Notes: generated by a model not told the origin, from the letters alone. Positions 9,501-52,532 are shown, counted from the first letter of the stretch. The stretch: 64,000 bases of DNA from Acidimicrobiales bacterium (GCA_963662455.3 OZ224042.1:1727234-1791233); one strand, 5' to 3'. Translations and numbers: made by a program.

Positions 9501-10162
9501 CCCTTGACCCGCTCTGCCATGTCCTCAGACCGAGAGAGCTGATCCAGCCGGGCGATCAGAAGGTTCTTCTCCGCGAACGGGTTGCCCGTGCGGGAATCCT
9601 CGACCGCGGCACGCGACATCAACTCGAACGACAGTCCGAACCTCTGCCACAGCTCGTCCTGCCACTGCTCCACCAGGCTCCCCGGCGCCACGATCAGACA
9701 ACGGACCACGTCACCGCGCAACATCAACTCACGGATCAACAGCCCCGACATGATCGTCTTGCCCGCACCCGGATCGTCCGCCAGCACGAACCGCAACGGC
9801 CGCAGCTCGAGCATCCGGTTGTAGACCGCATCGATCTGGTGCGGGTAGGGCTCGATGTTGGACGTGTCGACCGCAGCGAACGGATCGGCGAGATGAGCCT
9901 GCTGCAACCGCTGTGCCTCCGCCGCGAGCTTGAACATCGCACCGTCGGCGTCGAAACTCCATCTCCGCTGCTCCGGCTCGGCGAAGCCCTCCAGATCGCC
10001 CTCCCCGATGATCCGGTCGCCCAACCGTCCGTCACCTGTGCGGTAGGTGAGGGTTGCCGAACCCGGCCCGTGCATCTCCACGGCCACCACCGTCACCTCG
10101 CCGTCGGCGACCACGCCCGCCAGTCGCATCCCCGCGACCAGACCGTCGAACGCAAGCGTCAC
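6554..10162 (-). CDS. SNF2-family helicase with C-terminal DUF3883/endonuclease-like module
   Basis: 1202 aa. Helicase motifs PHQ, DDPGAGKT, VIVDEAHKM and QRFGRIHRIGQ. The C-terminus GYDVLSFDP...YYLIEVKG is D...ExK-like. GTG start with GAGGTGG 7 nt upstream. Confidence 0.85.
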   Translation of the reverse strand: MTLAFDGLVAGMRLAGVVADGEVTVVAVEMHGPGSATLTYRTGDGRLGDRIIGEGDLEGFAEPEQRRWSFDADGAMFKLAAEAQRLQQAHLADPFAAVDTSNIEPYPHQIDAVYNRMLELRPLRFVLADDPGAGKTIMSGLLIRELMLRGDVVRCLIVAPGSLVEQWQDELWQRFGLSFELMSRAAVEDSRTGNPFAEKNLLIARLDQLSRSEDMAERVKGSQWDLVIVDEAHKMSANRYSGELRRTKRFILGEALRERTRHLLLLTATPHNGKDDDFLAFMTLVDPDMFEGRLRGRGNKGDGDERPEMPDTSQVMRRIVKENLRTFEGRRLFPQRHAHSLSFELSAPEAELYESVTNYVRTGMNRAQRMQEGGDRRGIMVGFALAGLQRRLASSPAAIYHSLRRRRDRLAEQESELRRLASSGDPVPVVDLPRGVRISDLEDFDFDDYSDDEFEELESIVIDAATAAGTADELAAEVAELEVLVELADGVRTSREDTKWVQLRDLLRSGRFAVGAGLSADGEDSVGRGTVPKLIVFSEHKDTLTYLEERIAAELGRPEAVVVIHGGIKRHDRRAIQDRFRVDPTAQVMVATDAAGEGVNLQVANLMVNYDLPWNPNRIEQRFGRIHRIGQNRPCHMWNLVAHETREGQVFQRLFEKIEQQRGVFGDQVYDVLGDSQINVSLRDLLMRAIRSDADPAHGAWMDEVIDGDIGTQLNGVLEERALVSGLADAAANDEIRRTMAQAKARKLSPWFVQTFFSTALCHYGGRITGREHGRFEITRVPVAVRAAADPSLGAVHDRYHRVTFDKAHIAPDLSRSDSGESSARQGIGVPAELVSPGSPLLTAVLRKVSADHGETLQRGAILVDPKNPSVEPRLLVFLDHSITDGRLVHGSRQVVSRRVQYVEIDRYGNVGDPGGQPYLNYAPLAEEQAGLLDGRVDLDWAGHAAEVGARDWAIEQMAAPHFEEVRAVVTGRVARVAEAVRERLEAEIRYWDLRAEEIKAQELAGGKPRLNSGRARARAEELEARLAQRRADLALEENLHNGPPTVVGAALVVPQGLLDQLQGSPPVLDATADKMETDRRAVAAVMKAERALGRRPEQKEHSNPGYDVLSFDPVAGVYYLIEVKGHLPGTEQISVSKTQVGQAQCSPDVWRLAVVSVPDEPDAEPEVRYLVRPFEGVTMHEAQTSIPLNVSDLLAQSLPPH

Positions 10163-14614: not shown

Positions 14615-15499
14615 TCACAAGGCCAAGCGATGCTCTATGAGGTCGACGAACGACGGGTTGAGTTCGATCCCGACCCAGCGGCGATTGAGGTTTCTTGCCG
14701 CTAACAGCGTCGTGCCTGATCCGGCGTAGGGGTCGAGCACGATGTCGCCGGGCTCGCTGGTGATGCTCACGCATTGATTGGCCAGCGTCATAGGCATCAC
14801 CGCAGGGTGGTCATCGACTCCGCTGTCGCTGCGCCGACGAGGCTCGGTATTGACATCCCATACCGTGCGCAGCCTGCGCCCGTTCGGTCCACGGACGGCG
14901 TCCGTGTCGTAATAATAGTTCTCGCTCTTGGACAGCAGGAAAACGGTCTCATGAGCCTTTGTCGGACGATCGCGCACCGACTCAGGATGCGCGTTGGGCT
15001 TGTTCCAGACCACCTCAGAACGCACCCACCACCCAGCGTCTTGCAACGCGAATGCCAGACGCCAGGGAACCCCGATCAGGTCCTTGGGTTTCAGACCCTC
15101 CGGGGTCGCCGGGCGCACGCTCATTGCCCGCGCCCTGTTCTTCCGGTCGGGCGCTCGATAACGGCGGTTGCCCGATGTATAGCTGTCGCCCACGTTGAGC
15201 CACACCGTGCCGTCGTCGCTGAGGACGCGGCGCAGTTTGTCGAAGGTCACGACGATGCTCTTGAGGTAGTCTCCCAACGCATCGTCGCGGCCGATCTGGT
15301 CCTTCATTTCGTAGTCGCGCAGCGACCAGTACGGCGGAGAAGTAACCACGGTGCGAATGCTGCGATCCGGCAGCAGATCGAGACCATCTGAAGCCGCCCC
15401 GCATATCAGCAGAGACTCAGTCAATTCAACCTGCGGCACTCCGTCGCTCGAGTTCACACGTCGATACGGGCACGCAGCAACAAGTCCAGGCAGGCGCAT
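14615..15499 (-). CDS. Beta-class N4-C/N6-A DNA methyltransferase (SPPY motif)
   Basis: Motif IV TSPPYW is N-terminal and motif I LDPYAGSGTT is C-terminal. GGAGGTG lies 5 nt upstream of the ATG at 15499. The ORF track maximum start is 15679. Confidence 0.85.
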   Translation of the reverse strand: MRLPGLVAACPYRRVNSSDGVPQVELTESLLICGAASDGLDLLPDRSIRTVVTSPPYWSLRDYEMKDQIGRDDALGDYLKSIVVTFDKLRRVLSDDGTVWLNVGDSYTSGNRRYRAPDRKNRARAMSVRPATPEGLKPKDLIGVPWRLAFALQDAGWWVRSEVVWNKPNAHPESVRDRPTKAHETVFLLSKSENYYYDTDAVRGPNGRRLRTVWDVNTEPRRRSDSGVDDHPAVMPMTLANQCVSITSEPGDIVLDPYAGSGTTLLAARNLNRRWVGIELNPSFVDLIEHRLAL

Positions 15500-15700
15500 C
15501 ATCACCTCCGACGGTACTTCGCGCCACACCCTATGCGGGCGACCCCCGTCAATTGATTGCAATAGTCGATCACTCACAATGACTGACGTTAATTGCGGAC
15601 TACGACAGCGCTGTACGCGCGGCACTGTCGATGGGTGACGGCTCTGACCCCCGCCCCCCTCGTTTACACTCGGGCTCAACCAACGACCAAACTCTGCAAG

Positions 15701-16441
15701 TCAACCCGCAGCAGGCGTCTCGGGCGAATCCTCGGGGCCGAAGGGCGCGAGACAAACCAGGGCCGCGGCGTCGCCGACGAGTTCAGACAGTTCATCGACG
15801 AAGCTCGAATGCGCCGGCAGGACCTTGTTGAGAACGATCACGAAACGAGCCGGCGGAGGACAGTCCTTGCGGGATCCCTGATCGCTCAACAGCACCGCTG
15901 ACAGACGAGCCGGCGTCAACACATCAGCAGTTGAGCACCCGGCGGCCTCCGCGACACGCTCCGGGCGATGACACCGCTCAGAGATCACCGCGCCGAGCGC
16001 CGCTGCACCCACACAGACAACCAGGGCCGTCGTCTTGGAGGGAACAACCGGCTCATAGTCGAGCGGGGCTTTGAATGGCATCCGCCGAGAACCGTCCGCT
16101 TCCACCACGACATGGTCGGCCAGACCGAACCATCTGTCACAGACCTGAGGTGCCACACCGAGTGCCTTGTGCCCGGCAACGGCCCGCCAAGCCAACACCA
16201 CCCGCCGACTTGCCAACGCGCGCTTCAGCACGTCGTCGGTGGGAGCCAACAGCGGCTCATGCCCACCGGTTCGGTCACACCCCATCTTGGTCGTGGTGGT
16301 CAGCACGACCGTGCCGGCGAGTTGCGCGCCGAGAGCGAACAGCACCGTCGTCTTGCCCCCTCCCCCGACGAGCGACACCAACTCGTGGTCACCCAGACCG
16401 AGAGCGTCCGCGATCTCGCCGATCATCACCGGTTCAGCCAT
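15701..16441 (-). CDS. yqeC: YqeC-like putative selenium-dependent hydroxylase accessory protein
   Basis: LVGGGGKTT P-loop followed by VVLTTTTKM, which I recall as characteristic of the YqeC family. ATG at 16441 is preceded by GGGTGGG. Confidence 0.6.
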   Translation of the reverse strand: MAEPVMIGEIADALGLGDHELVSLVGGGGKTTVLFALGAQLAGTVVLTTTTKMGCDRTGGHEPLLAPTDDVLKRALASRRVVLAWRAVAGHKALGVAPQVCDRWFGLADHVVVEADGSRRMPFKAPLDYEPVVPSKTTALVVCVGAAALGAVISERCHRPERVAEAAGCSTADVLTPARLSAVLLSDQGSRKDCPPPARFVIVLNKVLPAHSSFVDELSELVGDAAALVCLAPFGPEDSPETPAAG

Positions 16442-16540
16442 AACAGAGCCCACCCTACGACCCGTTCGTACGGTGGCCCAACAAACCTCAGGGATGGTCA
16501 CCGGGTTGAAGTGGTTATATCAAAGCCTTAAAGTGACTAC

Positions 16541-19245: not shown

Positions 19246-20115
19246 GTGATGGAGCAACTCCTCTGGCACCACGACCCGCCAAGACTACTCCGCTCACCTG
19301 TCCTGGTCGCCGCTTGGGACGGCTGGTTTGATGTGGGTGGTGCCGCAACCGGTGCCGTGGAGGCGATGCGAGGCACTGATTCCATCCATCTCGGGAGCAT
19401 CGACGCTGACGAGTTCTTCGACTTCAACGAACACCGGCCCAACTTGCGAATCGGTCCGGACGGCCGACGAATCGTTGAGTGGCCTTCAAACGACGTGCAC
19501 TGTTCAACGCTCGACGACCGGGACAGGGACTTAGTGCTTATTGCCGGAGTCGAGCCCCATCTGCGTTGGCGAACTTTCGTCGACGCTGTCATCGAAATAA
19601 TCGAACGGCTCGACGTGAAGCTTGTGGTCACGCTCGGAGCCATGATCGCGGAAGTTCCCCACACTCGCCCGCCGACGATCACCGGCTCGACCACCGACAT
19701 CGAACTCGGCGAGCTGCTGCGCCTGGATCAACCTTCGTATCAGGGTCCGACTGGGATTGTGGGAGCCCTCCACCAACGCCTCGATGCGGCGGACGTACGC
19801 GCGGTGTCGCTGCGAGCGAGCGTTCCCCACTACGTGTCGGGCGCTCCCAACCCCAAAGCGTCTCGTGCCTTGCTCGAACGTTTCGAGCGGGTGACCGGCT
19901 TGCCGACACATTGGGCGAAGTTCGACCAAGAAACCTTCGATTGGGAGTCGCGGGTCGACGAAGCGATGCAAGGAAACGACGAGATCGTGCAGTACGTCCG
20001 CGCTCTCGAGCAGCGTTACGACGACCAGGCAGAGTCGAGCCTCCCGACTTCTGAGGACCTCGCAGCCGAGTTTGAGCGCATTCTTCGGCGACACGACAAC
20101 GAATCACCAAGCTGA
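19246..20115 (+). CDS. PAC2 (proteasome assembly chaperone 2-like) family protein
   Basis: [22 protein letters not shown] and overall length are typical of actinobacterial PAC2-family proteins. Confidence 0.7.
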
Positions 20116-20239
20116 ACCACACGAACCGAGATGTCGCATCACCGGTGCCCTGACTGAATCAAATACCCGAACTAGTTGGACAACTGCACACAAACGCGGC
20201 AGTATTCCGGTTTCAACGGTCCACTTTCAGGGGAAGCGC

Positions 20240-20716
20240 ATGAAGTCAATTACCTTGGCCGTCAACGGCACCGAACGAAACCTCGAAGTGGAGCCGCGCA
20301 CCTTGCTGGTGCATGCGCTACGCGACGAGTTGCGGCTGACTGGAACCAACATCGGATGCGACTCAAGCAGTTGTGGCGCCTGCACCGTGCTGCTCGACGG
20401 TCGGTCGGTCAAGTCCTGCACGATGTTTGCAGTGCAAGCCGACGGGGCCGACATCACCACCATCGAGGGCGTCGCAGACGCCGACGGCACGATGAATCCG
20501 ATGCAGCAGGCGTTCCATGAACACCACGCTCTGCAATGCGGTTACTGCACACCCGGAATGGTGATGGCGGCGATTTCTTTGGTCGACGAGTACCCCGACC
20601 TTGACGAAGGGGGCGTGCGCCACGGGCTTGAGGGGAACCTGTGCCGCTGCACCGGCTACCAGAACATTGTGAACGCTGTGCTCGCTGTGGCCGGCGCGGG
20701 TTCCAAAGAGGAGTGA
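20240..20716 (+). CDS. (2Fe-2S)-binding small subunit of a molybdenum hydroxylase (CoxS-like)
   Basis: [11 protein letters not shown] and CGYCTPG...CRCTGY cluster motifs. ATG at 20240. Confidence 0.9.
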
Positions 20717-20719
20717 ATC

Positions 20720-23104
20720 ATGACCATGACCGATGATCATGCGACCCACATGGGAAACCCGCGGCTGCGACGTGAAGACCCGGCTCTGCTAACCGGCGAA
20801 GCACGATTCATAGACGACATGAGCTTCCATGGCGAGGTTTGGGTCGGGATTGTGCGCTCCAGCGAAGCTCACGCCAGGATTCTCGGCGTCGACGGCAGTG
20901 CAGCGCTCGGGATCGAGGGTGTGGCCGAAGTGCTTTCGGGTGCTGATCTCGCGCCGTTGTGGGGTGATGGTGCATTGCCGTGTGCTTGGCCCGTCACCGA
21001 CGACATGCGCAACCCCACTCACCTGCCGGTTGCCACCAGCGTCGCTAAGTATGTGGGCGACGCGGTGGCTGTGGTGCTCGCTGACTCGCGTTACGCTGCC
21101 GCCGACGGTGCGGCTGCTGTACTGGTCGACTATGACCCGTTGCCCGCGGTTGTCGACATCGAAGCTGCGGTCGCGGCCGATGCCCCGCTGGTGCATGAAG
21201 ATCTTGGCACCAATGAGAGTTACACTTGGCCGTTGATACCCGACGCCGACGCCGTGAACGAGGCTTTCGCCAACGCTGTCCACGTGGTGAGCGAACGTTA
21301 TGTTCAACAACGGTTGATACCAGCGCCGATGGAACCTCGCGGAGTGATTGCTGCGCCAGGAGTGGCCAACGGCGAACTCACCCTGTACTCAGCCACGCAG
21401 ATCCCGCACATTCTCAAAGTGATGACTGCGTTGACTCTAGGCATCCCCGAGCACAAGGTTCGAGTCGTCGCTCCCTGGGTCGGTGGCGGGTTCGGTTGCA
21501 AGCTCAACGTCTATGCCGAAGAGATTCTGTGCTGCGCGTTGGCGATGGACAGAGGCGTGCCAATGCGTTGGACCGAAAGCCGCAGCGAAGCCGCAACCGC
21601 CACGATTCAGGGCCGCGGCCAAGTACAGCACATTGAACTCGCCGCCGATGCCAACGGCAAGGTGCAGGCGGTGCGGGTCAAGCTGTTGGCCGACATGGGC
21701 GCATATCTGCAGTTGGTGACGCCCGGTGTGCCGCTGCTGGGCGGGTTCTTGTATCACGGCTGTTACGACATCGCCCACTATTCGTTCGAATGCACTTCGG
21801 TGTTCACCAACAAGACGCCTACTGATGCCTACCGAGGAGCTGGACGCCCCGAAGCCACTTACGCGATTGAACGGGCTATGGATTCTTTGGCGGTTGCCGT
21901 GGGCGTTGCCCCCGAGGAGATCCGGTCCCGCAACTTCATCGGAGCCGATGCTTTCCCGTACGAGTCCTGCGCCGGGCTCACCTTCGACAGCGGCGACTAC
22001 CAGGCGGTGCTCGACAAAGCTGTGGAGATGGCAGGTCTCGAGGGCGTGCGTGCAGATCAAGCACTTCGACGAGCGGAGGGCTCCAACCGTCAGATCGGCG
22101 TCGGGTTCTCAAGTTACGTGGAGATGTGCGGTCTCGCTCCGAGCCGAGTGCTGGCGTCGCTCAACTACGGTGCGGGCGGGTGGGAGGCAGCGACCGTGAG
22201 AGTGTTGCCGACCGCCAAAGTACAGGTGATCACCGGTTCGACGCCTCATGGTCAAGGCCATGAGACGTCCTGGTCGATGATCGTCGCCGACAAGCTCGGC
22301 ATCGACCCCGACGACGTCGACGTGCTGCACTCCGACACCGCGATCAGCCCCACCGGTCTCGACACCTACGGCTCCCGGTCACTCTCGGTCGGCGGAACCG
22401 CGGTGTTCATGGCGACCGACAAGGTGCTCGACAAGGCCCGGCTGATAGCCGCTCACCAGCTCGAAGCCAACGAGGACGACCTCGAGTATGTCGACGGGGC
22501 GTTCCAGGTCAAGGGCACACCGACCGCAGCGGTTCCCTTCGCAGCGATCGCCTTCGCGGCCTTCACCGCCCACGACCTGCCCGACGGCATGGAACCCAAC
22601 CTTGAAGCTCACGCCACCTATGACCCGCCGAATTTCACGTTCCCCAACGGAACCCACATCGCTGTGGTGGAGGTCGACACCGAGACCGGCGACGTCGACA
22701 TTGTCGACTATGTAGCTGTTGATGACTGCGGCAACCAGGTCAACCCGATGATCGTCGAGGGGCAAGTACACGGAGGCGTACTGCAAGGTGCTGCCCAGGC
22801 ACTGTATGAAGACGCTGTTTACACCGAAGACGGCCAGATCGTTACCGTCAACCTGGGCGACTATCTGGTGCCGTCAGCTGTTGAAGCGCCTGTTTATCGG
22901 CTGGCCAGCCATGTGACGCCGAGCCCTACCAACCCGATGGGGGTCAAGGGCATCGGCGAAGCGGGCACGATCGCCGCCACACCAGCGGTGATCAACGCCG
23001 TGGTCGACGCTCTGCGACCGATGGGCGTCACCGATATGGCGATGCCCGCTTCACCCCAAACTGTTTGGAGAACTATTGACGAGGCCCAAGGAGGTGCGTC
23101 GTGA
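20720..23104 (+). CDS. Molybdopterin-binding large subunit, xanthine dehydrogenase/CoxL family, form-II-type motif
   Basis: 794 aa. AYRGAGR at 21827-21847 rather than the AYxCSFR motif of genuine CO dehydrogenases. Confidence 0.9.
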   Translation: MTMTDDHATHMGNPRLRREDPALLTGEARFIDDMSFHGEVWVGIVRSSEAHARILGVDGSAALGIEGVAEVLSGADLAPLWGDGALPCAWPVTDDMRNPTHLPVATSVAKYVGDAVAVVLADSRYAAADGAAAVLVDYDPLPAVVDIEAAVAADAPLVHEDLGTNESYTWPLIPDADAVNEAFANAVHVVSERYVQQRLIPAPMEPRGVIAAPGVANGELTLYSATQIPHILKVMTALTLGIPEHKVRVVAPWVGGGFGCKLNVYAEEILCCALAMDRGVPMRWTESRSEAATATIQGRGQVQHIELAADANGKVQAVRVKLLADMGAYLQLVTPGVPLLGGFLYHGCYDIAHYSFECTSVFTNKTPTDAYRGAGRPEATYAIERAMDSLAVAVGVAPEEIRSRNFIGADAFPYESCAGLTFDSGDYQAVLDKAVEMAGLEGVRADQALRRAEGSNRQIGVGFSSYVEMCGLAPSRVLASLNYGAGGWEAATVRVLPTAKVQVITGSTPHGQGHETSWSMIVADKLGIDPDDVDVLHSDTAISPTGLDTYGSRSLSVGGTAVFMATDKVLDKARLIAAHQLEANEDDLEYVDGAFQVKGTPTAAVPFAAIAFAAFTAHDLPDGMEPNLEAHATYDPPNFTFPNGTHIAVVEVDTETGDVDIVDYVAVDDCGNQVNPMIVEGQVHGGVLQGAAQALYEDAVYTEDGQIVTVNLGDYLVPSAVEAPVYRLASHVTPSPTNPMGVKGIGEAGTIAATPAVINAVVDALRPMGVTDMAMPASPQTVWRTIDEAQGGAS

Positions 23105-23919
23105 TTCCCGCAAGTTTCGACTATGAGGTGGCCGAATCGGCCGAACACGCTGTTTCGCTGCTCACCGAGCACGGCGACGAAGCCAAGCTCCTGGCCGGTG
23201 GACACAGCCTCATCCCGATGATGCGCTTCCGTCTTGCCACACCGACGGTGCTTGTTGATGTGGGGCGACTGGACGATCTGCGTTACATCAACTCCGACAA
23301 CGGAACCATCTCGATCGGTGCGCTGACCCGCCACAGCGAACTCGAGCATTCGGCTTTGCTGGCGGAGTCGTGTCCATTGCTGGCGTCGGTGGCGGCTCTT
23401 GTCGGTGACCCGTCGGTGCGTCATCGCGGCACCTTGGGCGGGACTTTGGCCCACTCTGATCCGGCTTCTGATCTGCCTGCCGCGGTGCTGGCGTTAGGAG
23501 GAGTGATAGTGGCTCGCGGTCCCGGTGGTGATCGTGAGATCGCCGCCACTGACTTCTTCGCCGGTTATTTCGAGTCGGCGCTCGCCGATGACGAGATGAT
23601 CGTCGAGGTGAGAGTCGCGGCAAGCCCCGGCGGTTGGAACTATCAGAAGTTCAACCGTCGAGCGCAGGACTGGGCGATCGTGGGCGTAGCGGTGGCCGAG
23701 GAGGGCGCCGGGGTGAGCCTGGTCAACATGGGTTCGACCCCGGTGCGCGCATCAGCAGTCGAAGCCGCGGTCGCAGCAGGCGCCTCAGCCGCCGATGCCG
23801 CAGCGGTGGCAGCCGACGGACTGCAACCACCGTCCGATCTCAACGCCGATGCAGACTATCGCCGACATCTGGCGCGGGTCTTCACACAACGAGCCCTCAA
23901 CGCAGCAGGCGTCGCCTAG
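23101..23919 (+). CDS. FAD-binding medium subunit (CoxM-like)
   Basis: 272 aa. KLLAGGHSLIPMMRFR and GTLGG motifs. 4-nt overlap with the large-subunit gene. Confidence 0.85.
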   Translation: MIPASFDYEVAESAEHAVSLLTEHGDEAKLLAGGHSLIPMMRFRLATPTVLVDVGRLDDLRYINSDNGTISIGALTRHSELEHSALLAESCPLLASVAALVGDPSVRHRGTLGGTLAHSDPASDLPAAVLALGGVIVARGPGGDREIAATDFFAGYFESALADDEMIVEVRVAASPGGWNYQKFNRRAQDWAIVGVAVAEEGAGVSLVNMGSTPVRASAVEAAVAAGASAADAAAVAADGLQPPSDLNADADYRRHLARVFTQRALNAAGVA

Positions 23920-24621: not shown

Positions 24622-25140
24622 ATGGCACGAATTGATGTTGTAGACGGCGAAGGGCTCGAGCGGGAACGGTTGCTGATGATGCAGCCCGACGTGGCCAAAG
24701 GCATGTGGGTGTTCGCCAACGCGGTGTATGAGAAGACCTCGCTGCCCGCTCGGCTGCGCGAGATCGCCCGACTCCGTGTCGCGGTCGCCAACGGCTGTGG
24801 AGTGTGCCTCAACACCCGCTCGCCGAGAGCCGCCGAGCAGGGCCTCGACGAGGACGCTGTGCAGGAGGTGATGTCGTGCTCCATCGGCACGCCGCCGGCA
24901 ATCGAGGGGTTGACCGAGCGTGAACGGCTCGCCGGTGAGTTCGCGGACCGGTTCGCCAGAGACCACCACTCGATCGACGACGAGTTCATGGCCGAGGTCC
25001 GCAAGCACTTCTCAGACGTGGAAGTCATCGAGTTGACCGCCCTGTGCGCCATGACAGTCGGCAACGGACGGTTCTTGGCGGTGCTCGACATCGCCGTGGA
25101 CGACGACGGTTTCTATCTGCTGCCCGAGGGCGCCGGCTGA
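24622..25140 (+). CDS. Carboxymuconolactone decarboxylase/AhpD-like family protein
   Basis: REIARLRVAVANGCGVCLNTR contains the CxxC of AhpD-like CMD proteins. Confidence 0.7.
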   Translation: MARIDVVDGEGLERERLLMMQPDVAKGMWVFANAVYEKTSLPARLREIARLRVAVANGCGVCLNTRSPRAAEQGLDEDAVQEVMSCSIGTPPAIEGLTERERLAGEFADRFARDHHSIDDEFMAEVRKHFSDVEVIELTALCAMTVGNGRFLAVLDIAVDDDGFYLLPEGAG

Positions 25141-34148: not shown

Positions 34149-34378
34149 GAGGCCGAGCGGATTGACCCCGCACACGGTCGCGACAGAACGAGGCCGTGGC
34201 CCGAGCGGCCCGTGAGCGCAGCGAACAAGAGCGGGAGACGACAGGTCTCGACGCACCCGCGATGGTCAATCCGCGCACGTTCTGAGGGGTTGCGCGGATG
34301 GGTGACAAGTACGTCGCGTCGAAGCGGGAGACAACAGGTCTCGGCGCATCCACGATGTTCAATCCGCGCACGTTCTAG
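34149..34378. repeat. Intergenic repeat family, copy B (with duplicated 3' sub-module)
   Basis: Shares its 5' part with copies A and C. The sub-module AGCGGGAGAC.ACAGGTCTC...CGATG.TCAATCCGCGCACGTTCT occurs twice (34230-34286 and 34323-34378). A 9-bp hairpin ATCCGCGCA/TGCGCGGAT is at 34269-34299. Confidence 0.7.
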
Positions 34379-35391
34379 CTGCGGGGGATGCCGTGGTAGG
34401 GACGGCCGGCGTCCTTCCACTCGGCGTAGAGCTCGAAGAACTGCTCACCGAACGGACTGAGGTCTTGCAGGGGCATAGCCGCACGGCGCACGGTGAAGTC
34501 CATGGGGGCGAGCTCGGCGGCGGTCGCGAACCAGTCGACCGCTGACGGCTCACCGCAGCGACGCAGATGAACTGCAATCCGAAAAGCCAGCCGAGCCTCG
34601 ATCTCGCCGGCGTCGAGATCGGGAATCTCCGTGGCGGCGTCTGCGGGAAGCTTCCCGGAACGGACCCACTCCCGAACTCGGTCCAGGTGCTCATCGGGGC
34701 GCACACCCGTGAATTCGAAGAACTTGTCGGTGCCGACCTCAGCTGAGTTCGGCCGGGCGATGGCGCCGTCCTCATCGATCCAGACCACCGTGGGCACATT
34801 GCTGACCGCATACAACTCGGCGAGCACATGGTCCCGATCAAGCAGAACAGGAAACGAAATGCCCTCGGTGAGGGGCCGAACATCGTCGGCCGACTCGTCG
34901 AGCGCCACCCCGATCACCATGAAACCGCTGTCGCTCAGTTCATCGTTGAGTGCCTGCCACCCGGGCAGTTCAAATCCGCAGCCTCACCAGCTTGCGAAGG
35001 CCACCAACAGCCTCTTGCGGCCCGCGAACTGCTCCAGCGAGTGATCCTCCCCGTCGAGGTCGGGAAGCACGAAATTGGGGGCACGACGCCGGCTGAGCGC
35101 ATCGCTGCGAGTCTGGGACGGCACGCTCAAAGCCACGAGATCGGTGTCGTCTACAAGCATGGAACTGACGCCGACGGCCGTCGCAGCGGCGCGAAGATCA
35201 ACGCAGTCACCGTGCAGCAGGTCGGTCTCGGTGACCGGTATGCACTCGCTCTCTCGACACAGACCCTGCGGTTTCAGTTCCCAACCGAGAACCTCTTGCA
35301 GCGATGTTCGGTCGACAAGCACCAGGTCATCGACACAATGGCCTTCTACTTCAAGCGATTCATGCGGCATGAGAACCGTAACCGTCGACAT
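34375..35391 (-). CDS. Thioredoxin-fold (TlpA/ResA-like) protein with in-frame TGA at the redox-Cys position; candidate selenoprotein
   Basis: ORFs 34984..35556 and 34375..34920 are in the same frame and are separated by only one TGA (34984-34986). Read-through gives ...RKRLLVAFASW-U-GCGFELPGWQALNDELSDSGFMVIGVALDES..., which aligns with the FWASWCGPCxxExP consensus. Confidence 0.55.
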
Positions 35392-35504
35392 TGAATCCCC
35401 CAGCGGCTGATTGATTGGCTCAGGGCTGGGAGTCTTGCAGCTTCGCGCCCCGAACGCCCCATCGGACGCCTCACGAATCTGGATCGCCGGATAGGGTTCG
35501 GAAC

Positions 35505-36287
35505 ATGTCATCCGTAGTCCAACTTGAACGCAACACCACCACCGGAGTCGCCACAATCCGGCTCGACCGACCCAAAGTGAACGCCGTCAACGAAGCGATG
35601 CTCGACGAACTCGACGCTGTCTGCAACGCCCTGGCCGACGACCGCGGGATCCGGGCCGTCGTGTTGACCGGAGGATCCCGACACTTCGCAGCGGGCGCCG
35701 ACATAGAACGGTTCCCGACCTTCGACCGCGACGCCGCACTCTCCTTCTCACAGCAGTTCAACAACACCACGCTGAGCATCGAGGCGCTGCCGCAGATCAC
35801 CGTCAGCGCAATCAACGGCTACGCCCTCGGAGGCGGCCTTGAACTCGCTCTCGCCACCGACTTCCGTGTGGCTGCGCGCAACGCACAACTCGGGAACCCC
35901 GAAGTTCTGCTGGGGATCATCCCAGGCGGCGGGGCGACGCAACGGCTCGCCCGGTTGGCCGGCGTCACCAAGGCCAAGGACCTGGTGTACTCGGGCCGTG
36001 CGATCGGCGCCGAAGAGGCCCTGGCCTGCAACCTGATCTCAGCGATCTTCGAGCCCGACGAAGTACAGGCCGAGGCGACCAGGATGGCCGAGGGCTATGC
36101 CTTTGGCCCAGCGTCGCTGCGACTCGCCAAGGCAGCCGTGCTGAGCGGCTACCACCTGCCGCTCGACGAAGCCGTCAAGATCGAGTCGGAACTGTTCGCG
36201 GACTGCTTCAACACCGAAGACTGCGCCACAGGCGTGCAGAGCTTCCTGCAGAACGGACCCGGCAAGGCCTCCTTCACCGGTCGCTGA
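35505..36287 (+). CDS. Enoyl-CoA hydratase/isomerase (crotonase) family
   Basis: ATIRLDRPKVNAVNEAM...GGSRHFAAGADI...NGYALGGGLELALATD. Confidence 0.9.
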   Translation: MSSVVQLERNTTTGVATIRLDRPKVNAVNEAMLDELDAVCNALADDRGIRAVVLTGGSRHFAAGADIERFPTFDRDAALSFSQQFNNTTLSIEALPQITVSAINGYALGGGLELALATDFRVAARNAQLGNPEVLLGIIPGGGATQRLARLAGVTKAKDLVYSGRAIGAEEALACNLISAIFEPDEVQAEATRMAEGYAFGPASLRLAKAAVLSGYHLPLDEAVKIESELFADCFNTEDCATGVQSFLQNGPGKASFTGR

Positions 36288-43774: not shown

Positions 43775-46700
43775 TTAGTCGTCGTCGGTGATGGTTCCGG
43801 TGGCGGTGCCTTTGCCGTCTTCGATGGTGGCGCCTCGGGGGTTGGTGAGCTCGACGGTGAAGTACTCGTCTGGCTCTGAGCGGTAGTCGTCGATGAGCCA
43901 CACGGTCACGGTCTGTTCGGTCTGGCCGGGCGTGAACACTACTGTGTAGTCGCGGGTCTGGTAGTCGAGCCACATGTGGGCGCGGCCTGTCAGGCCCCGC
44001 CAGTTCCAGGTCGTGAACCGGACCCGCACCTCCTCGCTCGAAGCCTCTGACAACCTCACCGTGAAATCAACGGCCCATGACCCTTCAGAACCTGCAGCGT
44101 CCTCGACTGACACTGTCACCGAACTCACCGGGGGCGGATCGTCGTTGTCGGCGACATTCACGGTGCCTGTTCCCTGCGTATTAGACACCGTGTAACCACC
44201 ACCGCCGGTGTTCACCGTCACAGTCACCGAACCGTCCAACTCGTCAACCGAATCATCAGAAGTCCCGATCGTCAAGGTGACCGAGCCTGTAGTCGGGACT
44301 GTGACCGTGCGACTGCCCGTGACAGCCCCGAACGCGCCGCTCTGGGAGACTGTGACCGTCACCGGCAGGTCAGCTGTCGGCGCGGGGGCCGCGGTGAGCG
44401 TGAACGAAGCGCTGGTGCCTTCGGTCACGCCTGGCCCGGCGGTGATGCTCACCACCGGTATCGGCGGATCGTCGTCGTCGGACACCGCGACGGTGCCCGC
44501 ACCCTGTGTGTTGGACACGGTGTAGCCGCTGCCGGTATTGACCGTGGCGGTGACCGAACCGTCCAACTCGTCAACTGAGTCGTCGGTAGTGGCGACGGTG
44601 AACGACACGCTGCCGCCCGACGGGACCGTGACCGTCCGGGAGCCCGTGACAGCCCCGAACGCTCCGCTCTGGGAGACTGTGACCGTCACCGGCAAGTCCG
44701 CTGCCGGCGCGGGGGCCGCGGTGAGCGTGAACGAAGCAGCACCGCCTTCGGTGACGCCTAGCCCGGCGGTGATGCTCACCACCGGTATCGGCGGATCGTC
44801 ATCGTCAGACACATTCACGGTGCCCGCACCCTGAGTGTTCGACACGGTGTAGCCGCTGCCGGTATTGACCGTGACGGTGACCGAACCGTCCAACTCGTCA
44901 ACTGAGTCGTCGGTAGTGGCGACGGTGAACGACACGCTGCCGCCCGACGGGACAGTGACCGTCCGACTGCCCGTGACAGCACCGTAATCACCGTCGGCGC
45001 CGACGGTCACGGTCACCGGCAGATCCGCTGCCGGCGCAGGGACCGCGGTGAGCGTGAACGAAGCGTTGGTGCCTTCGGTGACGCCTGGCCCGGCGGTGAT
45101 GCTCACCACCGGTATCGGCGGATCGTCATCGTCGGACACCGCGACCGTGCCTGTTCCCTGTGTGTTGGACACGGTGTAGCCGCTGCCGGTATTGACCGTG
45201 GCGGTGACCGAACCGTCCAACTCGTCAACTGAGTCGTCGGTAGTGGCGACGGTGAACGACACGCTGCCGCCCGACGGGACCGTGACCGTCCGGGAGCCCG
45301 TGACAGCCCCGAACGCTCCGCTCTGGGAGACTGTGACCGTCACCGGCAAGTCCGCTGCCGGCGCAGGGACCGCGGTGAGCGTGAAGCTGGCAGCACCGCC
45401 CTCGGTGACGCCTGGCCCGGCGGTGATGCTCACCTGCGGGACATCATTGTCCGCAACCGCGACCGTGCCCGCCCCCTGAGTGTTGGACACGGTGTAGCCG
45501 CTGCCGGTATTGACCGTGACGGTGACCGAACCGTCGGTTTCGTCTGCGGAGTCGTCGGTAGTGGCGACGGTGAACGACACGCTGCCGCCCGACGGGACCG
45601 TGACCGTCCGGGGGCCTGTGGGCGCACCGAACGCGCCGTTCTGGGAGACTGTGACCGTCACCGGCAAGTCCGCTGCGGGCGCAGGGACCGCGGTGAGCGT
45701 GAAGCTGGCAGCACCGCCCTCGGTCACGCCTGGCCCGGCGGTGATGCTCACCTGCGGGTCCGGTATGACGACGGGCGCGACCGGGTCGTCGTCGTCGGTC
45801 ACGTCCACGGATCCTGACGCGTTCGCGCCGACCGTGTAACCGCTGCCCGCGTCGACCGTGAGTGTCACTGTCCCGTCGGGCTCATCGGTCGAGTCGCCCG
45901 TCGTGGCGATGCTCACCGTCGCGGTGCCGCCTGTAGGGATCGTCACCGTGACCGGCGTCGGGCCGTAACCGAAATCACCCGACGTGACCACGCTGACGTC
46001 CACGTCCAGATCCGCTGCGGGGGCGGGAGCGGCGGTCAGCGTGAAACTGACCGTAGTACCCTCGGTCCCGCCGGCCGAACTCAAAATACTCACCACAGGC
46101 ACCACCGGCGGCGGATCAGCCGTCGCGGCGGCTTCGATCAGCCTCAACTGCGCGGCGACCTGATCCCAACCCGACCAGACATTGGCATACACCTGCGCCC
46201 CCGCAGCCGTCAACGGCTCCAGATTGGGGTAGTCCCCGTCGCCGAACGCCTCCAACACACGCTTCCAACGGTTCACGTGCTTCACACCCCGATACGTCTC
46301 GGCGGCCTTGCTGCGCGCCGTCGCCAAAACCTGCGCATCGACCTGCACGCTCCCCCGCGCCGGCGGCGGCTGCGGGTTCACCGCGTCCAACGCCACCATA
46401 TGGGCCAGCACCGGAACCCACCGCGGCCGCCCGATGTCCACATGCACCCTCGCCTCGTCGAGCGTCGTCGGCACCAAACCCGCATAATCCTCCAACCCGA
46501 ACGCCTCCAAAACACGCTTCCAACGCGTCACGTGCAACACCCCGTGATGAACCTCCGCCGCATAACTGCGCACATCAGCCTCCAACTGCGCACCCAGCAC
46601 CGGCCCGGTCGGCGCATCATTGTCGGCAACCGCGACTGTGCCCGTCCCGTGCGTGTTCGACACCGTGTAGCCGCTGCCGGTATTGACCGTGGCGGTGACC

Positions 46701-49700
46701 GAACCGTCAGACTCGTCAACCGAATCATCAGAAGTGCCGATCGTCAAGGTGGCGCTGCCGCTGGTGGGAATGGTCACTGTCCGCGTCCCTGTGGCGGCCC
46801 CGTAGTCACCGTCGGCGCTGACAGTCACGCTGACCGGCAGATCAGACGCCGGTACGGGGCTGGCGGTGAGGGTGAATCCGGCATTGGCGCCCTCGGTGAC
46901 ATCCCCGTCAGCCGCGATGCTGACCACCGGCGCGTCATCGTCGTCTGACACCGTCACCTTGGCAGCGCCCTGAGTATTCGACACTGTGTAACCGCTGCCG
47001 TTCATCAGCGTCACCGCGGCGAAGCCGTCGACCTCGCTGACCGAGTCGCCGGTCGTGGCGACGCTGAGCGTCACACTGCCAGACGTCGGCACGGACACCG
47101 ACCTGAAACCGGACGCGACCCCGAAATCGCCGTCAGCCGAGACCAGCACACTGACGCTCAGGTCAGATGTCGGCGCGGGGGCCGCGGTGAGCGTGAACGA
47201 AGCGCTGGTGCCTTCGGTGACGCCTGGCCCGGCGGTGATGCTCACCACCGGTATCGGCGGATCGTCATCGTCAGACACATTCACGGTGCCCGTCCCGTGC
47301 GTGTTCGACACGGTGTAGCCGCTGCCGGTATTGACCGTGACGGTGACCGAACCGTCCAACTCGTCTGTGGAGTCGTCGGTAGTGGCGACGGTGAACGACA
47401 CGCTGCCGCCCGACGGGACCGTGACCGTCCGGGGGCCTGTGGGCGCACCGAACGCGCCGTTCTGGGAGACTGTGACCGTCACCGGCAAGTCCGCTGCGGG
47501 CGCAGGGACCGCGGTGAGCGTGAAGCTGGCAGCACCGCCCTCGGTCACGCCTGGCCCGGCGGTGATGCTCACCTGCGGGTCCGGTATGACGACGGGCGCG
47601 ACCGGGTCGTCGTCGTCGGTCACGTCCACGGATCCTGACGCGTTCGCGCCGACCGTGTAACCGCTGCCCGCGTCGACCGTGAGTGTCACTGTCCCGTCGG
47701 GCTCATCGGTCGAGTCGCCCGTCGTGGCGATGCTCACCGTCGCGGTGCCGCCTGTAGGGATCGTCACCGTGACCGGCGTCGGGCCGTAACCGAAATCACC
47801 CGACGTGACCACGCTGACGTCCACGTCCAGATCCGCTGCGGGGGCGGGAGCGGCGGTCAGCGTGAAACTGACCGTAGTACCCTCGGTCCCGCCGGCCGAA
47901 CTCAAAATACTCACCACAGGCACCACCGGCGGCGGATCAGCCGTCGCGGCGGCTTCGATCAGCCTCAACTGCGCGGCGACCTGATCCCAACCCGACCAGA
48001 CATTGGCATACACCTGCGCCCCCGCAGCCGTCAACGGCTCCAGATTGGGGTAGTCCCCGTCGCCGAACGCCTCCAACACACGCTTCCAACGGTTCACGTG
48101 CTTCACACCCCGATACGTCTCGGCGGCCTTGCTGCGCGCCGTCGCCAAAACCTGCGCATCCACCTGCACGCTCCCCCGCGCCGGCGGCGGCTGCGGGTTC
48201 ACCGCGTCCAACGCCACCATATGGGCCAGCACCGGAACCCACCGCGGCCGCCCGATGTCCACATGCACCCTCGCCTCGTCGAGCGTCGTCGGCACCAAAC
48301 CCGCATAATCCTCCAACCCGAACGCCTCCAAAACACGCTTCCAACGCGTCACGTGCAACGCCCCGTGATGAACCTCCGCCGCATAACTGCGCACATCAGC
48401 CTCCAACTGCGCACCCAACACCGGCCCGGTCGGCGCATCGTCGTCATCAGACACATTCACCGTGCCTGTCCCCTGAGTGGCCGACACGGTATAGCCGCTA
48501 CCGCCGTTGACTGTGGCGGTGACCGAACCGTCCAACTCGTCAACCGAGTCGTCAGAAGTGCCGATCGTCAAGGTGGCGCTGCCGCTGGTGGGAATGGTCA
48601 CTGTCCGCGTCCCTGTGGCGGCCCCGTAGTCACCGTCGGCGCTGACAGTCACGCTGACCGGCAGATCAGACGCCGGTACGGGGCTGGCGGTGAGGGTGAA
48701 TCCGGCATTGGCGCCCTCGGTGACATCCCCGTCAGCCGCGATGCTGACCACGGGCGCGTCGTCGTCGTCTGACACCGTCACCTTGGCAGCGCCCTGAGTA
48801 TTCGACACTGTGTAACCGCTGCCGTTCATCAGCGTCGCCGCGGCGAAGCCGTCGACCTCGCTGACCGAGTCGCCGGTCGTGGCGACGCTGAGCGTCACAC
48901 TGCCAGACGTCGGCACGGTCACCGACCTGAAACCGGACGCGACCCCGAAATCGCCGTCAGCCGAGACCAGCACACTGACGCTCAAACCGGCCGGCGGCAG
49001 CGGAGCAGCCGAAACCGTGAAACTCGCAGCAGCCCCCTCGGTGACACCGATGCCGCCGCTGATGCTGACCTCCGGCGTCACGGCCTGTTCCTGGACAACG
49101 ACCGTGACAGAACCACCGGGCGCGACACCCTCGGACACCCCCGTGGCGCCCGGCGCCCGGCTGCCCGTCCCGAAAGAGATCGTGATCGGCGTATGCACAT
49201 GGTCTGAGTCGGCGCGACCCCAGAAGACCAGCTCGGCGACCTGACCGCCGGCGCCGATCGTGACCTCCGACTCCGCGCCGTACGCCGTGCGCGACACCGC
49301 CGTCCCCAAATCGGCCGCGTCGGCAAGATTCCAGCTCTCATCGACCGGCCCGCCCGAGACCGTGACCGGCACACGGACGAACTCACCGGCCCTGAGCCTG
49401 CGGCTCAAACCGATCCGCAGCACCGTCTGTCCGTCGTCCTCAGAAACAGCGCCGTCATCGACCGACAGCGACAGACCCACCGGCAAAGCCCCGTCGTCGT
49501 CCGCGACAGCCACAACAGCCGAGCTAGCGTTGCTGTCCACTGTGTAGGCGGCATCCGCAGCGGGCGCGTCGAACGTCGCGGTGATGCTGCCGTCGCCCTC
49601 GTTGACTGCGTCGCCCTCGGTGCCCACGGTCAACGCCGCCGTGGCCGCGCCGGCGGGGACCGTCACCGTCCGCGCGCCGACGTCGCCGCTGACCGCGAAC

Positions 49701-52012: not shown

Positions 52013-52532
52013 CGAAGCGTCAAGAAGCCCCCGAAACATCCGCAATCGAATCACCGCTCCATTACATGATCCAACAGGTACACGCCGCAATTATATATTG
52101 GGCTGCCCCGGTCCATCAACCCCAGAAACAATCTCACACACCACACGACAAGGGAACGTCCAAATGTCCCGCTGTGGCCTCCTCCCGCCTCGCGTTGTGG
52201 AACGGTCAGGACTTGGCCGCAGACTTGGAGGTAAAGGCTTGCGGCGACTACCCCGACGCCCAATGATCGCTCATGACTCGACATGCTCGACCTCGGCCGT
52301 CTGCGTGCTCCTGAGCCCGTTGGCCGCCTTCGGACACCACCGAACCCTCGACTGTGACTCGTCTGCATGCTCCGGGTCGGCTCCGGAGGCTGCTGGTACT
52401 CGGTCTTGCGCTTGCTGTGCGATGTCGTGATATGGCTTGGGAGCGTCAGTGAGGCAACAAGACGAACACGCACGCGCAGCGATAGCCTCGTTGGAGCCTT
52501 GCGAATCCTCTCCCTAGTGAACTGGAGCCTTC

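What the first reader, a model, noticed from the sequence alone, without database searches (positions are those of the whole stretch)
34375..35391. Candidate selenoprotein: thioredoxin-fold gene with in-frame UGA at the redox cysteine position (W-U-G-C)
Seen in the sequence:
- Two minus-strand ORFs (34984..35556 and 34375..34920) share one reading frame. They are interrupted only by TGA at 34984-34986.
- Read-through restores a complete TlpA/ResA-like thioredoxin fold: APNFVLPDLDGEDHSLEQFAGRKRLLVAFASW-[TGA]-GCGFELPGW...GFMVIGVALDES...FPVLLD...VPTVVWIDEDG.
- The TGA falls exactly where the first Cys of the WCxxC redox motif sits. The downstream C-x-x-E-x-P spacing is kept.
- 15 nt after the UGA the mRNA can form CUGCC-CGGGU-GGCAG (34954-34968). 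This is a small GC-rich hairpin with G and U in the loop, at a position compatible with a bacterial SECIS element.

From memory only: I recall a curated family name along the lines of ResA-like WAxxUGC-motif protein. I cannot verify that here.

Context: a YqeC-like selenium-trait marker lies at 15701..16441 in the same window.
Basis: partly seen in the sequence, partly recalled or inferred. Interest (0 to 1): 0.75.

Follow-up and report, generated by a model that had tools for sequence, protein, structure and literature searches.

The report
Selenocysteine gene of known UGC family

Summary
One minus-strand gene (35391..34375, 338 codons) has a single in-frame TGA at 34984-34986, in the context FASW-U-GC. 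The same TGA is kept in 13 orthologues (78-94% identity, Acidimicrobiales / Ca. Aldehydirespiratoraceae MAGs). It is also kept in all 120 metagenome loci returned by a motif scan. More distant homologues (36-54% identity) carry TGC there. dN/dS is 0.1-0.2 on both sides of the TGA. The 5-bp, 5-nt-loop hairpin 15 nt downstream fits the published bacterial SECIS rules. Across 126 Sec forms it shows RNA-level selection: the Leu codon is always NTG, and CUG/CAG swaps to UUG/CAA at synonymous sites.

The family is already known. [quoted passage not shown] The window protein scores 193.5 bits against a 300-bit cutoff, so it sits in a divergent Acidimicrobiia clade. GenBank annotates that clade as two genes.

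The Sec machinery (selA, selB, selC, selD) could not be checked. None is in the window. Only the selenium marker YqeC is present. The biochemical function is unknown.

The parts
34375..35391 (-). Complete selenoprotein coding sequence: 338 codons including Sec136, TAG stop at 34375-34377
   Evidence: Orthologues have the same start (MSTVTV) and the same architecture. dN/dS is 0.1-0.2 along the whole gene.
35396..35401 (-). Shine-Dalgarno-like GGGGGA, 4 nt upstream of the ATG
   Evidence: Read directly from the sequence. Not tested further.
35095..35391 (-). N-terminal domain of about 99 residues with invariant W37, G43, C45 and C50 (GLCxxxxC). Fold family unknown.
   Evidence: Invariant columns. 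AlphaFold pLDDT is above 90. There is no Pfam hit, no PDB sequence hit and no Foldseek hit.
34708..35094 (-). ResA/TlpA-like thioredoxin-fold domain (residues about 100-228) carrying W-U-G-C, E141, P143 and the cis-Pro loop NVPT
   Evidence: Pfam AhpC-TSA and Redoxin. Foldseek best matches are ResA structures, rmsd 1.5-1.8 A over 112 columns.
34984..34986 (-). UGA codon 136, read as selenocysteine
   Evidence: TGA at the same column in 13 orthologues and 120 metagenome loci; TGC in 8 distinct more distant homologues.
34954..34968 (-). SECIS-like hairpin CUGCC-CGGGU-GGCAG (5 bp, 5-nt loop), 15 nt after the UGA, encoded by the Leu-Pro-Gly-Trp-Gln codons
   Evidence: RNAalifold consensus of 127 Sec forms. 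Synonymous-site covariation and invariance statistics. It meets the published bSECIS constraints. Free energy is -7.6 kcal/mol.
34378..34707 (-). C-terminal helical domain (residues about 229-338), ending in the clade-specific PFGxxFFELYxEWxxAGxPYHGIP
   Evidence: AlphaFold secondary structure. Invariant columns. No Pfam family. This part diverges from the NF041054 profile.
15701..16501 (-). Context only: YqeC, a marker of the selenium-cofactor trait, which implies selenophosphate supply (SelD) in this genome
   Evidence: TIGR03172, 168.4 bits against a cutoff of 73.05. The link to SelD is established knowledge and was not tested here.

Best explanation
The gene encodes a 338-residue, probably cytoplasmic, three-domain thiol/selenol-disulfide oxidoreductase. 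UGA codon 136 is recoded to selenocysteine.

How the recoding would work: SelB carrying Sec-tRNA(Sec) is recruited by a small hairpin that starts 15 nt downstream of the UGA and lies inside the coding sequence for L-P-G-W-Q.

How the enzyme would work: Sec136 sits at the N-terminus of helix alpha-1 of a ResA/TlpA-like thioredoxin fold, in the position of the attacking Cys. Cys138, two residues on, would act as the resolving residue by forming a selenenylsulfide (U-G-C).

Shown here: the conserved UGA, the Cys/Sec pairing, purifying selection on both sides, hairpin covariation, and the fold.

Inferred: actual Sec insertion, SelB binding, the redox chemistry, the substrate, and the roles of the N-terminal CX4C domain and the C-terminal helical domain.
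For: (1) There is a single in-frame TGA, in the context FASW-U-GC.
(2) The same TGA is present in L001-L013 (78-94% identity; Acidimicrobiales and Ca. Aldehydirespiratoraceae MAGs).
(4) About 300 full-length homologues carry WCGC, and their DNA has TGC at that codon.
(5) dN/dS is 0.1-0.2 upstream and downstream of the TGA. It is at most 0.36 in the 21 codons between the UGA and the first internal Met.
(6) UGA is the ordinary stop codon here: 12 of 15 checked genes end in it. This is therefore site-specific recoding, not a reassigned code.
(7) Hairpin. RNAalifold gives a 6-bp stem and a 5-nt loop. The hairpin Leu codon is NTG in 126 of 126 Sec forms, against 48% G-ending at other Leu codons of the same sequences. 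The CUG/CAG versus UUG/CAA table is [[105,1],[5,13]], p = 8e-13, with little difference in base composition between the two groups. Pair 17:33 is C:G 84, U:A 25, p = 4e-18. The loop has G at position 2 in 126 of 126. The stem is intact in 125 of 126 Sec forms but in only 4 of 8 Cys forms.
(8) The hairpin meets the published bSECIS model: loop 3-9 nt, stem at least 4 bp, G in the first two loop positions, 16-37 nt from UGA to loop (here 20), free energy at most -7.5 kcal/mol (here -7.6).
(9) The fold is ResA-like, with U aligned to the first active-site Cys and C138 to the second.
(10) The best family hit is NF041054, 'ResA-like WAxxUGC motif-containing protein', E = 6e-57.
(11) YqeC is in the window.
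(12) A preprint reports the Sec trait in another Acidimicrobiia order, Actinomarinales.
Against: No selA, selB, selD or tRNA-Sec lies in the window or in the 717 kb of held loci, and the rest of the genome could not be read.

The window's hairpin is short. Its sixth pair is an A.G mismatch, and on its own it does not fold better than shuffles.

The stem is partly forced by the conserved peptide L-P-x-W-Q in a GC-rich genome, and half of the Cys forms also have it.

There is no Rfam SECIS hit, although Rfam covers bacterial SECIS elements poorly.

There is no experimental evidence for this protein, or for the family, in the papers I read.
Confidence: 0.9

Rival explanations
1. The gene is a pseudogene. 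A nonsense mutation truncated a Cys-type TlpA-like gene, and the downstream part is decaying.
For: In GenBank the orthologues are annotated as two separate ORFs: a 136-aa 'hypothetical protein' and a 197-aa 'TlpA disulfide reductase family protein'. No Sec machinery is seen in the window.
Against: The identical TGA is kept in 13 orthologues down to 78% identity and in 120 distant family members. Downstream dN/dS is 0.12-0.16, the same as upstream. There are no frameshifts or further stops.
Confidence: 0.01
2. These are two real, separately translated genes. One is a 135-residue N-terminal protein ending at UGA. The other is a C-terminal protein started at an internal codon such as Met158. They might assemble non-covalently.
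For: Gene callers predict exactly this, using several different internal starts. An ATG exists at 34920.
Against: The split would cut the thioredoxin fold at its active site, separating strand beta-1 and the W from the GC...E.P helix. The 21 codons between the UGA and Met158 are conserved as protein, including invariant G137, C138, L142, P143, G144 and W145, although no gene call covers all of them. The predicted internal starts differ between orthologues. All Cys homologues are single fused proteins.
Confidence: 0.03
3. The UGA is read through, but not as selenocysteine. Possibilities are near-cognate Trp or Cys insertion, or low-level leaky termination stimulated by the hairpin.
For: Sequence alone cannot tell which amino acid is inserted. 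The Sec machinery is unverified for this genome. The hairpin is small.
Against: The UGA aligns with a catalytic Cys, which is the classical Sec/Cys signature. The hairpin matches the SelB-type bSECIS rules, including the loop G[G/U] and the spacing. The family is listed as a selenoprotein family in curated resources and reviews. A Trp at the nucleophile position would inactivate the enzyme, yet the gene is under purifying selection.
Confidence: 0.05

Closest known systems
[quoted passage not shown]
   Same: Both have a thioredoxin/AhpC-TSA-type fold, a U-G-C redox motif with one Sec, many Cys-containing homologues, and an occurrence biased to non-marine and soil metagenomes. The window gene has all the sequence features.
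   Different: The papers give only a name, a motif and counts, so I could not align the window protein to their exemplar (MDE0950781.1). The window clade has F rather than W four residues before the Sec, and a different C-terminal tail.
NCBIfam NF041054 (WAxxUGC_long), 'ResA-like WAxxUGC motif-containing protein', an equivalog model of 354 positions
   Same: It is the best NCBIfam hit (E = 6e-57). The length and three-domain layout match. The Sec position is the same, and the motif is x-A-S-W-U-G-C. Metagenome relatives found by the TGA motif score up to 549 bits.
   Different: The window protein scores 193.5 bits against a curated cutoff of 300, mainly because the C-terminal third diverges. 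W is replaced by F at the first motif position. Five of the 8 Sec-containing metagenome relatives that were scored are also below the cutoff, so the model covers only the core of a wider Sec family.
Bacillus subtilis ResA and Bradyrhizobium TlpA (PDB 1ST9, 1SU9, 2H1B, 1JFU): extracytoplasmic CxxC thiol-disulfide reductases of cytochrome c and cytochrome oxidase maturation
   Same: The thioredoxin-fold core superposes at rmsd 1.5-1.8 A. Both have W before the first Cys, the E-x-P after the second Cys (ResA Glu80 equivalent), and the cis-Pro loop.
   Different: The active site is U-G-C, one residue shorter than C-x-x-C. No N-terminal membrane anchor or signal peptide is visible. There are extra N-terminal (about 100 aa, CX4C) and C-terminal (about 110 aa, helical) domains. 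The ResA model NF002854 scores 62 bits against a cutoff of 170. No cytochrome-maturation genes are adjacent.
Bacterial SECIS elements (consensus model of Zhang & Gladyshev as summarised in PMC13188914; prototype E. coli fdhF)
   Same: It is a stem-loop inside the coding sequence just 3' of the UGA. The loop is 5 nt with G at position 2 followed by G or U. The spacing from UGA to loop is 20 nt. The free energy is -7.6 kcal/mol.
   Different: It is at the minimal end of the model: 5 bp in the window and 6 bp in the family consensus. No bulged U or lower stem is conserved. The stem is largely fixed by the conserved peptide LPxWQ. SelB binding is untested.

Membership tests
UGC-containing Prx-like/TlpA-like selenoprotein family (GOS 2008; 2026 review) | Thioredoxin-like (AhpC-TSA / TlpA, cd02966-type) fold | tested here: met
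   Pfam AhpC-TSA E = 3.6e-15 and Redoxin E = 6.7e-13. Foldseek top hits are ResA, TlpA and DsbE structures.
UGC-containing Prx-like/TlpA-like selenoprotein family (GOS 2008; 2026 review) | U-G-C motif with the Sec encoded by an in-frame TGA that aligns with Cys in homologues | tested here: met
   W-[TGA]-G-C at 34984-34986. TGC in Cys homologues. TGA in 133 relatives.
UGC-containing Prx-like/TlpA-like selenoprotein family (GOS 2008; 2026 review) | Bacterial SECIS-like stem-loop downstream of the TGA | tested here: met
NCBIfam NF041054 ResA-like WAxxUGC motif-containing protein (equivalog) | Whole-protein HMM score at or above the curated cutoff of 300 bits | tested here: not met
   193.5 bits. 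Close orthologue L001 scores 187.6 and Cys homologues 178-214. Core members score 315-549.
NCBIfam NF041054 ResA-like WAxxUGC motif-containing protein (equivalog) | Motif W-A-x-x-U-G-C | tested here: inconclusive
   The window has F-A-S-W-U-G-C: A, U, G and C are kept, and the first W is replaced by F. 111 of the 120 metagenome members have W-A-x-W-U-G-C. 4 have F at the first motif position, and the other 5 have Y or H.
NCBIfam NF041054 ResA-like WAxxUGC motif-containing protein (equivalog) | Long (about 350 aa) architecture: N-terminal domain + thioredoxin fold + C-terminal helical domain | tested here: met
   The profile is 354 positions. The window's best matched stretch covers positions 8-226, with one further matched stretch whose coordinates were not reported. 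In the Cys homologue P0042 the match runs over positions 8-333. The AlphaFold model shows three domains.
Bacterial SECIS (bSECIS consensus model) | [quoted passage not shown] | tested here: met
   The loop is CGGGU. Family-wide it is N-G-[G/U]-N-U in 126 of 126.
Bacterial SECIS (bSECIS consensus model) | Upper stem of 4-16 bp, 16-37 nt between the UGA and the apical loop, free energy at most -7.5 kcal/mol | tested here: met
   5 bp, 20 nt and -7.6 kcal/mol. The energy is borderline; the family consensus hairpin gives -9.8.
Bacterial SECIS (bSECIS consensus model) | Binds SelB and directs Sec insertion | not testable with these tools
   This needs a reporter assay or a SelB binding assay.
Sec-decoding trait of the host genome | selA, selB, selD and tRNA-Sec present in the same genome | not testable with these tools
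   None is in the window or in the held loci. Only YqeC is present.
ResA/TlpA proper (cytochrome-maturation thiol-disulfide reductases) | C-x-x-C active site | tested here: not met
   The site is U-G-C, with a one-residue deletion relative to ResA CEPC.
ResA/TlpA proper (cytochrome-maturation thiol-disulfide reductases) | Family HMM above cutoff | tested here: not met
   NF002854 scores 62.2 against 170. TlpA NF047696 scores 35 against 230.
Peroxiredoxin (the name JGI gives the Cys homologues) | P-x-x-x-T/S-x-x-C(U) peroxidatic motif | tested here: not met
   The sequence before the Sec is L-V-A-F-A-S-W-U. There is no Pro at -7 and no Thr or Ser at -3. The motif definition comes from the review. 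The PrxQ/BCP models score far below their cutoffs.

The most novel reading that the evidence does not exclude
The Aldehydirespiratoraceae Sec clade is nearest to Cys forms (50-54% identity) and farther from every other Sec form (at most 47%). It may therefore be an independent Cys-to-Sec conversion. Such a conversion would be easy here, because the conserved peptide L-P-x-W-Q in a GC-rich genome already encodes a near-complete SECIS hairpin. The protein would then be a cytoplasmic three-domain selenoenzyme with a strained U-x-C centre and an N-terminal CX4C domain of unrecognised fold. It may act with the enoyl-CoA hydratase gene that neighbours it in the window clade and in two of three Cys-homologue contexts examined.
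Probability: 0.15. Interest if true: 0.5.

Novelty: new member of a known kind. Interest (0 to 1): 0.3.

Why it matters
There are practical gains. This clade falls below the NCBIfam cutoff and is deposited in GenBank as two genes, a 136-aa 'hypothetical protein' and a 197-aa 'TlpA family' protein. That hides a selenoprotein and a selenium requirement in a group of Acidimicrobiales MAGs.

The comparative data set assembled here (126 distinct Sec forms) gives clean synonymous-site covariation for a minimal bacterial SECIS. It could be used to widen the family model.

It does not change what is known about selenoproteins. The family, its UGC motif and its Cys/Sec duality have been in the literature since at least 2008. 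Its biochemical function remains unknown.

Tried and rejected
- **Rfam**, at gathering threshold on the whole window and at E <= 10 on 34860-35040: no SECIS model hit, only a chance sRNA match.
- **ARAGORN** on the window and on all 144 loci: no tRNA-Sec.
- **NCBIfam** scan of 20 window ORFs: no sel genes.
- **Single-sequence folding** of the region after the UGA: z-scores of +0.3 to +1.0, so not informative.
- **A lower stem** (UUGA/UCAA) considered for the window clade: not conserved in L001 or L003, so dropped.
- **My scan for other in-frame TGA candidates** in the window: it flagged only 25138(+), which is an ordinary stop between two adjacent genes. With its GC3/GC2 thresholds the scan did not flag the target gene itself, so it is a weak negative.
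- **N-terminal domain**: no Pfam, PDB-sequence or Foldseek match. The best Foldseek E-value was 0.8, with scattered low-probability beta-grasp and ferredoxin hits.
- **Conserved-neighbour search** over all loci: only antisense shadow ORFs of the gene itself and close-clade synteny clustered. There is no family-wide partner gene.
I therefore modelled the Cys homologue P0001 (54% identity) and the exact 135-residue N-terminal window fragment instead.
- **Paper search** for 'WAxxUGC': no paper.

Full report
**1. Observation.** The minus strand between 35391 and 34375 reads as one frame of 339 codons, including the final stop, with a single internal stop. That stop is TGA at 34984-34986, codon 136. 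The real start is ATG 35391. A GGGGGA sits 4 nt upstream, and every orthologue starts MSTVTV. The local context is LLVAFASW-[UGA]-GCGFELPGWQ. The hairpin CUGCC-CGGGU-GGCAG occupies 34968..34954, 15 nt after the UGA. The window has 62.5% G+C. It uses TGA as the normal stop in 12 of 15 checked genes, so the code is not reassigned.

**2. Is the TGA a mutation or a codon?** A protein search with U replaced by C found about 300 relatives. The full-length ones (about 345 aa, 48-54% identity, mostly Acidimicrobiia MAGs) all carry W-C-G-C. The closest hits (80-83% identity) were only C-terminal fragments. Their contigs (L001-L003) have a 136-aa ORF directly upstream. Reading through gives the same protein, with TGA at the same codon.

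A scan of one genome per species found 10 more orthologues (80-94% identity; Acidimicrobiales and Ca. Aldehydirespiratoraceae MAGs, several of them complete chromosomes). All have TGA there. Five more distant relatives (36-53% identity) have TGC.

Nei-Gojobori dN/dS between the window and seven orthologues is 0.10-0.20 upstream of the TGA and 0.12-0.16 downstream. It is at most 0.36 in the 21 codons between the UGA and the first internal Met.

A pseudogene, a sequencing error and a pair of independent genes are therefore all excluded for practical purposes.

**3. The hairpin.** Folded alone, the window's hairpin is unremarkable: -7.6 kcal/mol, with 48 of 200 shuffles folding as well. Longer stretches fold no better than shuffles. 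The evidence for the hairpin is comparative.

- RNAalifold on 127 distinct Sec forms predicts only one structure: a 6-bp stem (positions 17-22 and 28-33, counting the U of UGA as 0) and a 5-nt loop.
- The only wobble position inside the 5-bp core is the third base of the Leu codon. It is G in 126 of 126 Sec forms. At other Leu codons of the same sequences only 48% end in G (CTG 106, CTC 105, others 40).
- The closing pair covaries through two synonymous changes, Leu CUG with Gln CAG versus Leu UUG with Gln CAA. The table is [[105,1],[5,13]], p = 8e-13. A-ending two-fold codons are 41% and 34% in the two groups, so base composition does not explain the association.
- The sixth pair (Asp/Glu wobble base with the first base of the codon after Gln) is C:G in 84 and U:A in 25, p = 4e-18. 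In the window's subclade it is an A.G mismatch.
- The loop is N-G-[G/U]-N-U in every sequence.
- The core stem is intact in 125 of 126 Sec forms but in only 4 of 8 distinct Cys forms (p = 3e-5).

These values meet the published bacterial SECIS model: loop 3-9 nt, G in the first two loop positions followed by G or U, upper stem at least 4 bp, 16-37 nt from the UGA (here 20), and free energy at most -7.5 kcal/mol.

One caveat remains. The sequences are related, so the p-values overstate independence. Also, much of the stem is fixed by the conserved peptide LPxWQ.

**4. The protein.** Pfam sees AhpC-TSA and Redoxin at residues 102-213. An AlphaFold model of the Cys homologue P0001 (54% identity; mean pLDDT 93, pTM 0.90) shows three domains.

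- **Central domain.** Its best structural matches are B. subtilis ResA and relatives (rmsd 1.5-1.8 A over about 112 columns), followed by TlpA, DsbE and StoA. HMMER alignments to ResA put Sec136 on the first, attacking Cys and C138 on the second Cys, with a one-residue deletion between them (WCG-C against WCEPC). E141 and P143 fall on the ResA E-x-P, and NVPT falls on the cis-Pro loop. The centre is therefore U-x-C, not U-x-x-C.
- **N-terminal domain** (about 100 residues). W37, G43, C45 and C50 are invariant. The exact window fragment also models confidently. It has no Pfam match, no PDB sequence match and no structural match.
- **C-terminal domain** (about 110 residues). It is helical and has no family.

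No signal peptide or membrane anchor is apparent in the sequence. This rests on reading only and was not tested with a tool.

**5. Context.** The close orthologue contig L001 is syntenic with the window. On one side lie ABC-transporter genes, Rieske/TPP genes and a divergently transcribed enoyl-CoA hydratase. On the other lie a thiolase-like gene, an SDR and hydrolases. An enoyl-CoA hydratase is also adjacent to two of three Cys homologues examined in other Acidimicrobiia. Across the 120 diverse metagenome loci, no neighbouring gene is conserved. Context therefore gives at most a weak lead.

**6. Selenium machinery.** No tRNA is found in the window. The 144 held loci contain no tRNA-Sec. No sel genes appear among 20 scanned window ORFs. 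tblastn with SelA, SelB and SelD gave no hit. YqeC, the marker of the selenium-cofactor trait, is present and above its cutoff. By established knowledge this implies SelD, but not SelA, SelB or tRNA-Sec. A 2026 preprint reports complete Sec machinery in another Acidimicrobiia order, Actinomarinales. The decisive genome-wide check could not be run with the tools available.

**7. Comparison with what is known.** It is the best hit, at 193.5 bits against a cutoff of 300. Cys homologues and the close orthologue score alike, 178-214 bits. Eight Sec-containing metagenome members scored 549, 347, 315, 285, 254, 249, 177 and 153. The curated model therefore covers the core of a broader Sec family, and the window's FASW-U-GC clade lies outside its cutoff.

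In the literature the family appears as 'Prx-like (UGC-containing)', with pfam00578, the UGC motif, 46 Sec sequences and 855 Cys homologues. It is counted among the previously known families in the 2008 GOS study. [quoted passage not shown] No paper contains the string 'WAxxUGC'.

It is not ResA or TlpA proper: it lacks CxxC, scores below both models, and has extra domains. It is not a peroxiredoxin either, because it lacks the PxxxTxxC motif.

GenBank records for this clade split the gene into a 136-aa hypothetical protein and a 197-aa TlpA-family protein.

**8. Verdict.** The gene is a genuine, conserved selenoprotein gene with a minimal in-frame SECIS (confidence 0.9). It is a new, currently mis-annotated member of a known selenoprotein family, not a new kind of system.

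The window clade is closest to Cys forms (50-54% identity) and farther from all other Sec forms (at most 47%). This leaves open whether Sec was gained here independently or lost repeatedly elsewhere. That question, together with the unknown N-terminal domain and the unknown substrate, is the only part with some novelty potential. Interest: 0.3.

Noticed in passing
window 15701-16501 (-), with 20072-23919 (+): YqeC (TIGR03172, 168 bits against a cutoff of 73) lies about 4 kb from a three-gene molybdenum-hydroxylase set: a Fer2 small subunit, a 794-aa large subunit and an FAD-binding subunit. The large subunit's best NCBIfam hits are glyceraldehyde dehydrogenase alpha and aerobic CO-dehydrogenase large subunit, both below cutoff. 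This may be a selenium-dependent molybdenum hydroxylase trait.
   Followed up: partly
window 6554-10162 (-) and 14615-15679 (-): A 1202-aa SNF2 helicase has DISARM DrmD as its best hit (348 bits, cutoff 610). A 354-aa protein has a CcrM-like adenine methyltransferase domain. Together they may mark a defence or restriction-modification island.
   Followed up: no
window 43775-52090 (-): A 2771-aa ORF sits where the syntenic contig L001 has only about 160 bp between the ABC-transporter ATPase gene and the Rieske/glutamate-synthase-like gene. It is an insertion in the window or a deletion in L001.
   Followed up: no
L143 5001-6068 (Cys homologue P0116): This TGC (Cys) form keeps a perfect copy of the SECIS-like hairpin, including the sixth pair and the CGGGU loop (GAC CUGCC CGGGU GGCAG G). 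This fits a recent Sec-to-Cys switch, or a hairpin that pre-exists in Cys forms.
   Followed up: partly
L004 3001-4300: The closest relative (94% identity, uncultured Acidimicrobiales MAG) lacks the window's TAG stop. Its frame stays open for about 100 more codons after ...YHGIPAS.
   Followed up: no
window 35095-35391 (-), residues 1-99: The N-terminal domain, with invariant W37, G43, C45 and C50 (GLCxxxxC), models confidently but has no Pfam, PDB-sequence or Foldseek match. It may be a second redox site of unknown fold family.
   Followed up: yes
window 35415-36287 (+); L139 4173-4952; L142 6115-6915: An enoyl-CoA hydratase gene lies next to the thioredoxin-fold gene in the window clade (divergent orientation) and next to two of three Cys homologues examined (same strand). 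It is not conserved across the wider family.
   Followed up: partly
window 25138-25140 (+): My scan for same-frame ORF pairs split by TGA flagged this site. It is the ordinary stop of a CMD-like gene, followed 6 nt later by the GTG start of an alpha/beta-hydrolase gene. L001 has the same two genes annotated separately.
   Followed up: yes
L139 1-778 (-): A gene with the Pfam UGSC domain, the family of the 'UGSC-containing' selenoproteins, lies about 4 kb from the Cys-type homologue P0042. I did not check whether it carries Sec or Cys.
   Followed up: no
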